Part shown: positions 312 through 53,400 of the stretch, one piece after another
Layout: each line of letters starts with the position of its first letter
Numbering within the stretch: the first letter of the stretch is position 1
DNA from: Eledone cirrhosa
Lineage: Eukaryota
Length of the DNA: 64,000 bases
Direction: 5' to 3'
Assembly (NCBI GenBank): GCA_964016885.1
Contig: OZ024746.1
Location: 21,576,001-21,640,000 of the forward strand
Position numbers and translations under genes: made by a program
Notes under the pieces: generated by a model
Told to the model about the DNA's origin: nothing
Database searches by the model: none
What the model saw: the letters and a program-made list of their open reading frames with translations, nothing else

Positions 312-358
312 TGCTCCGATGACTCCAAACGAAAGTTTGGAAGAAACGATTGTCAGCA
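312..358 (+). ncRNA. Type I hammerhead-ribozyme-like motif (Penelope/retrozyme type)
   Basis: TGCT-CCGATGA-c-TCCAAAC(GAAA)GTTTGGA-a-GAAA-CGATTGTC-AGCA. Stem I is TGCT/AGCA, stem II is a perfect 7 bp with a GAAA loop, followed by the GAAA core, a short stem III and a GUC cleavage triplet (cut after 354). The core has U4->C. It lies about 45 nt before a (TA)n array. Confidence 0.6.
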
Positions 359-399
359 ATTAAATGATTTGAACACAATTTTGATAATTGTCTAATTTT

Positions 400-2241
400 T
401 ATATATATATATATATATATATGTATATATGTATATATATGTATATATGTATATATATATATATATATATATATATATATATATATATATATATATATGT
501 ATGTATATATATATATATATATATATGTATATATATATATATGTATATATATATATATGTATATATATATATATGTATATATATATATATATGTATATAT
601 ATATATATGTATATATATATATATGTATATATGTATATATATATATATGTATATATATATATATGTATATATATATATATATGTATATATATATATATGT
701 ATATATATATATATATATATATATATATATATATATGTATATATATATATATATATATGTATATATATATATATGTATATATATATATATATGTGTATAT
801 ATATGTATATATATATGTATATACATATATATGTATATATATATATGTGTATATATATGTATATATATATGTATATATATATATGTGTATATATATGTAT
901 ATATATATGTATATACATATATATGTATATATATATATGTGTATATATATGTATATATATATGTATATATATATGTATATATATATATGTATATATATAT
1001 ATGTGTATATATATGTATATATATATGTATATATATATATGTATATATATATATGTATATATATGTATATATATATGTATATATATATATATGTGTATAT
1101 ATATGTATATATATATGTATATATATATATGTGTATATATATGTATATATATATATGTATATACATATATATGTATATATATATATGTGTATATATATGT
1201 ATATATATATGTATATACATATATATGTGTATATATATATGTGTATACATATATATGTATATATATGTATATATATATATGTATATATATATATGTATAT
1301 ATATATGTATATATATATATGTATATATATATGTATATATATATGTATATATATATGTATATATATATGTATATATATATGTATATATATATGTATGTAT
1401 ATATATATATATATATATGTATATATATATATATATATATGTATATATATGTATATATATATATATATATATATATATGTATATATATATATATGTATAT
1501 ATATATATATATATATGTATATATATATATATATATATGTATATATATATATATATATATGTATATATATATATATATATGTATATATATATATATATAT
1601 GTGTATATATATGTATATATATATGTATATACATATATATGTATATATATATATGTGTAAATATATGTATATATATATGTATATACATATATATGTATAT
1701 ATATATATGTGTATATATATGTATATATATATGTATATACATATATATGTGTATATATATATGTATATACATATATATGTATATATATATATGTATATAT
1801 ATATGTATATATATATGTATACATATATATGTATATATATATATGTATATATATATGTATATATATATGTATATATATATGTATATATATATGTATATAT
1901 ATATGTATATATATATGTATATATATATGTATATATATATGTATATATATATGTATATATATATGTATATATGTATGTATATATATGTGTATATATATGT
2001 ATATATATATGTATATATATATGTATATATATATGTATATATATATGTATATATATATGTATATATATATGTATATATATATGTATATATGTATATATAT
2101 ATGCATATATATATGTATATATGTATATATATATGTATATATATATGTATATATATAAATATATATGTATATATATATATGTATATATATAAATATATGT
2201 ATATATATATATATGTATATATATATATACATATATATATA
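400..2241. repeat. Compound (TA)n/(TATG) microsatellite array, about 1.8 kb
   Basis: Almost pure TA dinucleotide interrupted by TG and occasional CA; source of the YI/YM pseudo-ORFs. Confidence 0.98.
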
Positions 2242-2490
2242 ATAACTAGAAATTGATGAACATATAAATGAACATGAATAATCACATGAGATAATTTTTA
2301 CAAGTGTGTAAGCACACATAGCTAAGTAGGTAACTAAATAAAGTTGACCAGAACTTCAAAAATAGATACCTTATAATATGATTAATCTTCCCTGTATATA
2401 TTCCATTAAAGAAATAGATTTCACCAATTAATCGGATGGTAAACCACAGAAGTGGAGACTTGGATTTTCAACAAGGAAGAAGTTCCAGCA

Positions 2491-2766
2491 ATATATATAT
2501 ATGTATATACTGTATATATATATATATATATATATATATATATATATATATATATATATATATGTATATAATATATATGTATATGTGTATATATATATAT
2601 GTATATGTGTATATATATATAAATGTGTATATATATATGTGTGTGTGTATGTATATGTGTATATATATATGTGTGTGTATGTATATGTTTATATATATAT
2701 ATGTGCGTATGTATATGTGTATATATATATATATGTGTGTATGTATATGTGTATATATATATATAT
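2491..2766. repeat. (TA)n/(TG)n compound microsatellite
   Basis: Seen directly in the sequence. Confidence 0.95.
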
Positions 2767-52039: not shown

Positions 52040-52226
52040 AATAATAATAATAATAATAATAATAAAGAGTAGGTATGAAGTATCAATATAGCATCATCAT
52101 TATGTTTATTCACATGTGACATACATTTCATAATCAATCAACTCAACACGTGTTATATGTGAATAAACATAATGGTGTTATATTTATGCTTCGTTCCTGC
52201 TCCTTATTATTATCATCATTATCATT
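52040..52226 (+). other. About 80-bp imperfect hairpin whose core mismatches are mostly G-U
   Basis: CATTATGTTTATTCACAT / ATGTGAATAAACATAATG perfect core, extended by GAGTAGG/CCTGCTC, GAAGTA/TGCTTC and TAGCAT/GTGTTA. Confidence 0.8.
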
Positions 52227-52491
52227 AACACTCTGCTACTTAAGGATACCAACTATAGTGTAACACCAAACGTGGAATACCACATCGGCAACCAGACCCA
52301 TATTGGCATTGAGTGCTCAAACTGGTGGTGAACCAATAGTAACTAAATGTTACTCACCAATAAATTATATAAATTATGGTCGACTGAATATGTACATGTG
52401 TTTTTTTTTCCCCCATTTTTTTCTTATTTTCCCCATTCTTTCCTCTCATCACTCTTTCTTTACTTTCTATTTATCTTCTATTTCTAACTCT

Positions 52492-52529
52492 ATCTTCTGA
52501 TGAAGGACTAGTGTCCAAAACGTTAAGAT
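52492..52529 (+). ncRNA. Minimal type I hammerhead-like motif (G12A) within a Penelope/retrozyme-like repeat, 52380-52620
   Basis: ATCTT-CTGATGA-A-GGAC(TAGT)GTCC-AAAA-CGTT-AAGAT: 5-bp stem I, 4-bp stem II, palindromic ACGT stem III. The GAAA->AAAA change is consistent with CpG decay. Confidence 0.6.
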
Positions 52530-53400
52530 TCTCTTCCTGCTATTTCTAGCTTTAAACTAATATATTTTTTCTATGTAATGTGCCTTTTATTTTGTTATTT
52601 TTTAAAATTACTTTTACATACATATATATGATGATGTTGATATATATTGATATATATATATATATATATATATATATATATATATATATATAGCTTTGCT
52701 TCATGGGTGCTGTATGATATGCTGTGAGTGATGCAGAGTAGATAGTAAATTTGCAAAAAAACAAGTTTACAACCAGATTTTGATCCCTCATTCCACTAAT
52801 ATAATTGAAAATATCAAGACCTAAACAACATTGATTTCTTACTTTATTGAAAACATGAATGTTTATATCTACTGACAGATATTTCTGATCAAGAAAAGGA
52901 AAATACCAAACCATTATTATTTTACTGTTGCATTGAATATGCAGATATCTATCTGTTTTGGTATTCTTGTAATTTATGAGCAGGATGACAGGGATATGAA
53001 ACAAAAAATTATATATTCATTTAAATTTTCCTGATTTTTAAGATAGATATTGAGATAAAACATATTAGATGTTCAAAAACAATTAGCAACTAAAATTATC
53101 TTTCTAATTATCTGTTGGCATTAAGAGTGACCTCCAACCATCTTCCAAGGGGTTATGACAACCTCATATCTTTTACACCACAGCAGCTTGCTGTATATAG
53201 CAATGAATCGTTCTTGCCTGAAACTTATCCTCTGTATGAATATCACAGATGTCTTTGAAACTAATTATCTCCCTTGATTCTCACATTACCAATCAAATGC
53301 TGATCTTCTTCTAGGCAAAGGTTACTGCTATATATACAAACATTCTAGACCACATTCACTAAAGGTCCATCTGGCTAATATGCAAAAACTCATTCACCAG

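What the first reader, a model, noticed from the sequence alone, without database searches (positions are those of the whole stretch)
312..52690. Recurring module: hammerhead ribozyme, short tail, (TA)n tract
Seen: hammerhead-like cores at 312-358, about 9273-9301, 16540-16595, 30569-30606 and 52492-52529 (all +), and a very decayed one at about 29598-29632 (-). Each lies about 45-220 nt upstream of a (TA)n tract on its own strand. At least four distinct stem II designs occur; only 30569 and 52492 belong to the same family. Known: Penelope-like elements (PLEs) and retrozymes carry minimal type I hammerheads, often with a palindromic stem III for dimeric cleavage. Inference: several independent non-coding ribozyme-bearing elements use or seed TA microsatellites here, which could link self-cleaving RNAs to the large TA arrays. 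No PLE RT or GIY-YIG ORF is visible in the window.
Basis: partly seen in the sequence, partly recalled or inferred. Interest (0 to 1): 0.75.

Follow-up and report, generated by a model that had tools for sequence, protein, structure and literature searches.

The report
Penelope retrotransposon ends in TA repeats
The recurring 'predicted self-cutting RNA, short tail, TA run' pattern is real but is a known one: most of these spots are cut-off tail ends of Penelope-like jumping genes whose protein-coding relatives lie elsewhere in this genome, and they likely insert into TA runs that were already there rather than create them.

Summary
The module is real and already described. Four of six cited sites hold hammerhead folds (316, 16544; 30574 and 52497 with mutated cores). 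9273 is an invariant but doubtful motif. 29598-29632 (-) is no hammerhead: that element runs on +, with its hammerhead at 29795-29894. In 599 kb sampled evenly from contigs C1-C4, 55 of 67 descriptor hits have (TA)5+ within 250 nt downstream, against 14.5% of random positions. The elements are not independent non-coding RNAs. Followed to longer copies, A, D and F run into Hydra-clade Penelope ORFs (RT plus C-terminal endonuclease; intact 794 aa in F), and E and B into Neptune-type ones. Craig et al. 2021 describe Hydra elements with 3' hammerheads and (TA)n insertion, including one from Octopus bimaculoides. TA is likely a target, not a product: it also sits at 14 of 33 plain 5' junctions (2.9% expected), and only 62 of 518 tracts lie behind a hammerhead. 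Additions: roughly 0.2-0.5 million motifs, core variants, and TA microhomology at the two fixed 3' ends. This scan noted the same system, and the short-end/long-end rule (confirmed here, 75 of 77 pairs), on other DNA before. Cleavage is untested.

The parts
1..398 (+). Family A: 3' UTR end of a 5'-truncated Hydra-type PLE. The body starts 910 nt before the window and an inverted copy of the tail about 1040 nt before it. Ends at the short 3' site.
   Evidence: same-strand Hydra-type RT/endonuclease sequence upstream in L161 and L163
308..361 (+). Hammerhead fold of family A: core 316-322 with C at position 4, palindromic stem III, predicted cut after 354
400..2241 (.). TA-rich array behind family A; far longer than usual for the family (median 38 nt)
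8882..9517 (+). Family E: terminal repeat (pLTR) of a Neptune-type PLE, about 99% identical to the 40 best-scored copies; ends at the long 3' site
   Evidence: pLTR-ORF1-ORF2-pLTR in L168 with Pfam RVT_1 and GIY-YIG
9273..9303 (+). Doubtful hammerhead-like motif of family E (U3-A8 core, stem II, palindromic stem III, about 2 bp of stem I)
9518..9547 (.). TA tract shared by the ends of E and G
9545..9732 (.). Family G: back-to-back insertion (short arm on -, long arm on +), cut inside its hammerhead; longer copies carry a full type I fold with A at core position 4. Parent ORF not traced.
16477..16490 (.). TA at the 5' junction of D, at the tail of a different short interspersed repeat (16354-16476)
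16491..16642 (+). Family D: 152-nt 3' end of a Hydra-type PLE; hammerhead core 16544-16550, predicted cut after 16593; at least 40 fully identical copies on C1-C3
   Evidence: Hydra-type ORF pieces upstream in L169-L173 and L175
16643..16676 (.). TA tract at the 3' junction of D
28334..29411 (.). Family J: back-to-back insertion with hammerhead folds at 28711-28724 (-) and 29317-29357 (+); another repeat interrupts the left arm. Parent ORF not traced.
29422..29493 (.). TA/TG tract between the 3' end of J and the 5' junction of F
29494..30123 (+). Family F: 630-nt 3' end of a 3.5-kb Hydra-type PLE, 99% identical to copies with an intact 794-aa ORF; ends at the long 3' site, then TA at 30124-30149.
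29786..29905 (+).
30465..30694 (+). Family B copy with a mutated core (30574-30601), between TA at 30431-30452 (tail of a short interspersed repeat) and TA at 30695-30712
52376..52620 (+). Family B copy; core 52497-52503, G12 lost; old family (83-88% identity); longer copies run into a PLE endonuclease C-terminus; TA at 52640-52692

Best explanation
Shown: each family continues, in longer copies, into RT and/or GIY-YIG-type coding sequence on the same strand; each family tested has two fixed 3' ends; insertions are variably 5'-truncated and mostly carry an inverted arm; TA flanks the 3' ends and many 5' junctions. Inferred: the endonuclease cuts (TA)n, the cut DNA primes reverse transcription at one of two internal RNA sites downstream of the hammerhead, and synthesis usually stops early, which leaves hammerhead, 45-230 nt and TA as the commonest relic. 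Inferred, less sure: the cut TA end pairs with a 2-5 nt TA patch at each start site, and back-to-back copies arise when both DNA ends prime, one at each site. The hammerheads with palindromic stem III would cut as dimers in tandem transcripts (from Cervera and de la Pena 2014; not tested here).
For: F: tandem period about 3.5 kb, intact 794-aa ORF in L154 and L156 with RWK, DKT, YRDD, CxCx5C, YIG, CxxC, CxH. D, A, and the family behind the genome's best Rfam Hammerhead_1 hits: the same linker and endonuclease motifs upstream of the hammerhead end. E: pLTR-ORF1-ORF2-pLTR, Pfam RVT_1 E 2e-9 and GIY-YIG E 2.5e-6, DKG, CX4CxxC. B: shared 3' UTR runs into an endonuclease C-terminus in L270, L289 and L300, with weak RT/thumb similarity upstream in L289 and L300. 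Enrichment 55 of 67 versus 14.5%. 89 of 124 classifiable copies have an inverted arm; of the 33 plain 5' junctions 14 have TA within 30 nt versus 2.9% at random. D, J and a B copy sit in TA at the tail of a short repeat, 7 of whose 9 sampled 3' ends carry TA. One short and one long end in 75 of 77 classifiable back-to-back pairs. Alternating-TA overlap at nine modal ends averages 3.8 nt versus 1.8 under the stricter null, P 5e-4. Craig et al. 2021 (PMC8557442; section 11, passages, supplement parts 1-2) list Hydra families with 3' hammerheads and (TA)n preference.
Against: P0001 and the D and A proteins have no significant Pfam match and P0001 no PDB match; Hydra placement rests on motifs and a by-eye comparison with published sequences, with no tree. 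A and D coding stretches in the copies fetched carry stops or frameshifts; B's link is to degraded fragments. 19 of 33 plain 5' junctions show no TA. Parents of G and J were not traced, so they may be non-autonomous. E's motif lacks a convincing stem I. No empty insertion site was seen. Frangieh et al. 2024 (PMC11167929) found that a Poseidon RT starts at RNA sites not homologous to the cut DNA and that hammerhead mutants still insert in vitro, which weakens both the pairing step and any essential role for cleavage.
Confidence: 0.9

Rival explanations
1. The elements add or lengthen TA themselves: the telomerase-related RT would copy the short TA patch at its start site repeatedly before moving on, so insertions seed or extend (TA)n.
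For: TA patches of 2-5 nt at all nine modal 3' ends; arrays behind the youngest families are somewhat longer (medians 51, 63, 77 nt for D, E, F) than the background median of 38 nt; 19 of 33 plain 5' junctions lack TA.
Against: 14 of 33 plain 5' junctions have TA, 15 times the random rate; 456 of 518 tracts have no hammerhead behind them; insertion into longer tracts by target size would also give longer flanks; arrays behind older families are shorter (38 nt A, 23 nt B). Pure seeding is disfavoured; some addition on top of targeting is not excluded.
Confidence: 0.1
2. The modules are independent non-coding retrozymes or SINE-like elements that spread through small circular RNAs.
For: No ORF in the window; many B copies start near one 5' point; no parent ORF traced for G and J; one G copy follows what reads as the start of a Hydra ORF, as an internal deletion would give (by eye).
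Against: No head-to-tail hammerhead monomers in the window; A, B, D, E, F run into PLE coding sequence; 5' ends vary widely. It may still hold for G or J.
Confidence: 0.07
3. Chance: short motifs in AT-rich DNA that is full of TA tracts.
For: 14% of random positions have TA within 250 nt; weak folding z-scores; this does explain the 29598-29632 call and perhaps 9273.
Against: Decoy descriptors give 0-5 hits and shuffles 1-3, against 69; strand asymmetry 55 versus 17; stems differ in sequence but keep pairing over 28 clusters.
Confidence: 0.02

Closest known systems
Hydra clade of C-terminal EN+ Penelope-like elements, including Hydra-1_Obim of Octopus bimaculoides (Craig et al. 2021, PMC8557442; section 11, passages, supplement parts 1-2 and search hits read)
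   Same: Single RT-endonuclease ORF with RWK, DKT, CxCX5C, flanking CxxC and CxH; hammerhead near the 3' end; (TA)n insertion; 5' truncation, inverted arms, tail at one end.
   Different: The F unit is 3.5 kb (published: generally under 3 kb); tails are 80-170 nt (30-40 bp given for PLEs); cores with C or A at position 4 and stem II up to 80 nt, whereas all Hydra hammerheads in their File S2 show CUGA; young, high-copy families with pLTR tandems.
Neptune-type PLEs (CX2-5CxxC linker plus CCHH; as summarised in Craig et al. 2021)
   Same: Family E: DKG, CX4CxxC, GIY-YIG, an upstream ORF1 in another frame, pLTRs, TA insertion. Family B's sister copies show CX4CxxC and the CCHH residues.
   Different: E lacks a standard hammerhead; no tree was built, and Neptune is itself paraphyletic in that paper.
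Minimal PLE hammerheads (Cervera and de la Pena 2014, PMC4209133; parts 1-2 of 4 read)
   Same: Type I, palindromic minimal stem III, extra base before stem II, mostly single motifs from truncated PLEs, close pairs on opposite strands, U3-A8 variant.
   Different: Scale: about 115 per Mb here (rough extrapolation 0.23-0.47 million) against 2,000-9,000 per genome there and 126,247 retrozyme-type motifs in axolotl (PMC7229834, passages).
Poseidon element PAc, internal RT initiation (Frangieh et al. 2024, PMC11167929; parts 1-2 of 4 read)
   Same: Two internal start sites downstream of the hammerhead give ends with and without a tail; both DNA strands are cut and extended; AT-rich targets.
   Different: PAc starts at sites not homologous to the cut DNA; here the nine modal ends share 2-5 nt with (TA)n.
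Metazoan non-LTR retrozymes (PMC7229834, passages; bioRxiv 10.64898/2026.07.22.740005, part 1 of 5)
   Same: Type I hammerheads, PLE-related.
   Different: Those are tandem non-coding monomers of 150-450 nt; these are dispersed truncated ends of coding elements.

Membership tests
Hydra-clade PLE (families A, D, F) | Single ORF, RT followed by C-terminal GIY-YIG-type endonuclease | tested here: met
   Intact in F; in broken pieces for A and D. By motif (YRDD, YIG/YVG); no Pfam match.
Hydra-clade PLE (families A, D, F) | RWK motif and DKT in place of DKG | tested here: met
   F has both; D and A have DKT, their RWK region was not recovered in an open frame.
Hydra-clade PLE (families A, D, F) | CxCX5C linker; CxxC and CxH near the C-terminus; no CX2-5CxxC | tested here: met
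   All three families.
Hydra-clade PLE (families A, D, F) | Hammerhead near the 3' end and insertion into (TA)n | tested here: met
   A and F have C at core position 4.
Hydra-clade PLE (families A, D, F) | Generally under 3 kb (a tendency, not a definition) | tested here: not met
   F repeats at about 3.5 kb because of a long 3' UTR.
Hydra-clade PLE (families A, D, F) | Placement in an RT tree with published Hydra proteins | not tested
   Published sequences were only compared by eye.
Neptune-type PLE (family E) | DKG, RT, CX2-5CxxC linker, C-terminal GIY-YIG with CCHH, pLTRs | tested here: met
   L168; the two histidines read by eye.
Neptune-type PLE (family E) | Hammerhead in the pLTR | tested here: inconclusive
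   U3-A8 core, stems II and III, about 2 bp of stem I; no diverged relatives covering it were found.
Neptune-type PLE (family B) | RT, CX2-5CxxC linker and CCHH endonuclease upstream of the hammerhead end | tested here: inconclusive
   Endonuclease C-terminus joined to B's own 3' UTR in three loci; the full linker is readable only in a sister subfamily; RT similarity weak.
Minimal type I hammerhead | Core C3-N4-GA-N-GA and GAAA, stems I-III, NUH triplet, palindromic stem III | tested here: met
   Families A, D, F, J and most of B's family; not the two window copies of B, nor 29598-29632.
Minimal type I hammerhead | Self-cleavage | not testable with these tools
   Needs a transcription assay.
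Non-LTR retrozyme | Tandem non-coding monomers, each with a hammerhead | tested here: not met
   No such tandems in the window; five families run into ORFs.
Non-LTR retrozyme | Abundant monomeric linear and circular RNA | not testable with these tools
   No RNA holder listed.
Naiad PLE | N-terminal endonuclease, no canonical hammerhead | tested here: not met
   The endonuclease is C-terminal in all traced families.

The most novel reading that the evidence does not exclude
TA-targeting Penelope elements prime by pairing: both ends of a cut (TA)n tract anneal to two fixed TA patches inside the RNA, downstream of the hammerhead, and start reverse transcription together, which gives back-to-back copies with one short and one long end. 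The telomerase-related RT may also stutter on the patch and lengthen the tract. This has left several hundred thousand hammerhead folds, with natural C4, A4 and U3-A8 core variants, in one animal genome.
Probability: 0.35. Interest if true: 0.6.

Novelty: new member of a known kind. Interest (0 to 1): 0.3.

Why it matters
The module itself is published, so the main value is annotation: young Hydra-type families (F with intact ORFs, D with at least 40 identical ends) that Pfam misses and that Rfam did not show in this window. If the extras hold, the genome would carry about 115 hammerhead folds per Mb, more in total than the counts in the papers read here, and would supply natural core variants to assay. 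The two fixed ends with TA overlap give a direct test of how Penelope elements prime and form inverted insertions, which Craig et al. list as open. An intact Hydra protein and its terminal repeat are candidate reagents for that test.

Tried and rejected
Rfam scan of the window: only microsatellite-driven miRNA matches among the 150 of 229 shown. Simple core regex with stem II up to 40 nt: missed F and listed chance hits; 50639 has no relatives and 12981 belongs to another repeat whose copies do not keep the core. Pfam and PDB searches with P0001: blank; 67 homologues found, nearly all unnamed, many with PF26215. RNA expression: no RNA holder listed, which is no evidence either way. Empty-site test at D with public contigs: repeat bins were skipped and no contig spans the site, so uninformative; its depth figures are not copy numbers and are not used. 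Family E: looked by eye for a better stem I after splicing and for a rearranged (type-SGC or CSG) order as defined in Eckert et al. 2023 (PMC10085705, passages); none found; its diverged relatives cover only the last 90 nt. First 5'-junction count misfiled inverted tails as 'other' and was replaced, which set aside 89 inverted, 15 edge, 12 reference-start and 2 indel cases of 151 before the 14-of-33 count. In one search the templates of A, C, D and G ran into TA, so their long ends and totals are not usable and only ends with known continuation went into. Short/long count: 9 of 86 pairs had an end at neither site and were set aside. Literature: eight answered full-text searches. Searches (Penelope-like, microhomology, target-primed, microsatellite; Penelope, twin priming, inverted, tail) each listed one general review, seen as listing only; the library lacks most subscription papers, and Arkhipova 2006 and 2013 were not read, so absence from print is not shown. 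PMC3088659 (passages) notes a natural U4C variant with reduced activity and U3-A8 covariation; PMC13282606 (passages) reports recently active Penelope families in Octopus vulgaris and does not mention ribozymes. Figures and most supplement parts of Craig et al. were not seen, and the supplements of the other papers were not opened.
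Full report
Setting. The window is G000:C6:21576001-21640000 in a 3.0-Gb genome of 1796 contigs, about 33% GC and rich in TA tracts.

Observation. Four of the six cited sites carry hammerhead folds: 316 (family A), 16544 (D), and 30574 and 52497 (B, both with mutated cores). The site at 9273 (E) is not decayed, being identical in 27 of 28 family segments, but has only about 2 bp of stem I. The site at 29598-29632 (-) has no core. 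It lies antisense in the 3' UTR of family F, whose hammerhead is on + at 29795-29894 with an 80-nt stem II. Two more insertions were missed: G at 9545-9732, in the TA tract behind E, and J at 28334-29411, whose 3' TA tract also holds F.

More than chance. I took 60 evenly spaced 10-kb stretches from C1-C4. A structure descriptor gave 54 hits in its first form and 69 in a wider form. Of 67 hits away from edges, 55 have (TA)5+ within 250 nt downstream and 17 upstream, against 14.5% of random positions. Eight decoys gave 0-5 hits and three shuffles 1-3. The hits fall into 28 clusters, 24 with a member near TA. Distances group at 18-65 and 90-228 nt. Bootstrapping loci gives 46-95 hits per sample, or roughly 0.23-0.47 million genome-wide if C1-C4 are typical. 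The descriptor is my own and the hits are not independent.

What the families are. Each search scored only the best 40 candidates, so family counts are lower bounds. F copies recur at about 3.5-kb spacing and as inverted pairs; L154 and L156 hold terminal repeat, an intact 794-aa ORF and terminal repeat. The protein has RWK, DKT, YRDD, CxCX5C, YIG, CxxC and CxH, the features given for the Hydra clade, and by eye it follows Hydra-1_Obim closely. Pfam and PDB gave nothing. A and D run into related ORFs, 30-50% identical to F's and broken in the copies fetched, as does the family behind the 18 Rfam Hammerhead_1 hits of the genome. E sits at both ends of ORF1 plus a 796-aa frame with RVT_1, CX4CxxC and GIY-YIG in L168. 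B is old (83-88%); its longer copies share about 1 kb of 3' UTR that joins an endonuclease C-terminus, and sister copies show the CX4CxxC linker. G and J have the same anatomy but no traced parent.

Target or product. Of 151 copies of five families, 89 have an inverted 5' arm, 29 were set aside (edge, reference start, indel) and 33 have a plain 5' junction; 14 of these have TA within 30 nt against 2.9% at random, and 19 do not. Only 62 of 518 sampled tracts lie behind a descriptor hit. In the window D, J and one B copy sit in TA at the tail of another short repeat, 7 of whose 9 sampled ends have TA. Array length falls with family age: medians 51, 63 and 77 nt for D, E and F, 38 for A, 23 for B, background 38. 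The 1.8-kb array behind A is an outlier and the 1.25-kb array at 26712 has no hammerhead beside it. TA is therefore most likely a pre-existing target. No empty site was observed (one search was uninformative), so some addition of TA is not excluded.

Mechanism. Each family tested ends at two fixed sites, matching the two internal RT start sites that give the tail in the Poseidon element PAc (PMC11167929). An earlier scan note proposed that back-to-back copies pair one short with one long end; here 75 of 77 classifiable pairs do, with 9 more unclassified. At nine modal ends in seven families where the template's continuation is known, 2-5 nt of alternating TA span the junction, mean 3.8 against 1.8 under the stricter null, P 5e-4. 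The sample is small, some families are related, and slippage after insertion could add to the overlap. I infer cutting of (TA)n, priming at internal TA patches, often from both ends, and early termination. PAc starts at non-homologous sites and inserts without hammerhead cleavage in vitro, so pairing and a role for cleavage remain open. Dimeric cleavage is taken from PMC4209133 and is untested here.

Comparison and novelty. Craig et al. 2021 list 27 Hydra families, 26 with (TA)n preference, with hammerheads near the 3' end, including one from Octopus bimaculoides. Cervera and de la Pena 2014 describe single minimal hammerheads as relics of truncated PLEs and close pairs on opposite strands. 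The module is thus known and these are new families of it. Differences are scale, longer tails, core variants (6 C4, 9 A4 and 17 candidate U3-A8 hits in the sample, the last set including some chance hits) and the TA overlap, which two searches did not find in the held library. Earlier scan notes reached the same Hydra reading on this and other genomes; they are AI notes and not independent support.

Verdict. Observation partly confirmed; interpretation partly supported; new members of a known kind; interest 0.3.

Noticed in passing
window 9545-9732; L186, L191, L195, L220, L224, L236: Family G has a complete type I hammerhead fold with a stable 5-bp stem III and A at core position 4 in all 9 background hits; it was the largest cluster in the sample.
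   Followed up: partly
L185:7082, L220, L231, L233, L239 (background loci): Several families carry U3-A8 cores with well-formed stems, so this variant seems common here.
   Followed up: no
window 33161-35044 and 41129-44371, minus strand: Open frames of 628 and 1081 codons with no Pfam match; probably exons of a host gene, which would put some insertions in introns.
   Followed up: partly
window 26712-27967: 1.25-kb TA-rich array inside another short repeat whose halves flank it (self-match to 30947-31092), with G only on one strand as in the array at 400-2241; no hammerhead beside it.
   Followed up: partly
window 3479-4462, minus strand: Broken frames that resemble the C-terminal end of a LINE ORF (by recall; no Pfam match for the part tested).
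   Followed up: no
L168:2627-2786: Family E's ORF1 and ORF2 overlap in different frames near a run of T and a GC-rich stretch, a possible programmed frameshift.
   Followed up: no
window 12549-13099: Partly tandem copies of a repeat of about 120 nt, with relatives elsewhere; one copy has a chance CTGATGA...GAAA arrangement not kept in the others.
   Followed up: partly
G000:C2:229784417-229785297 (L248-L253): Tandem array of a roughly 140-nt piece of family B's 3' UTR upstream of a B end.
   Followed up: no
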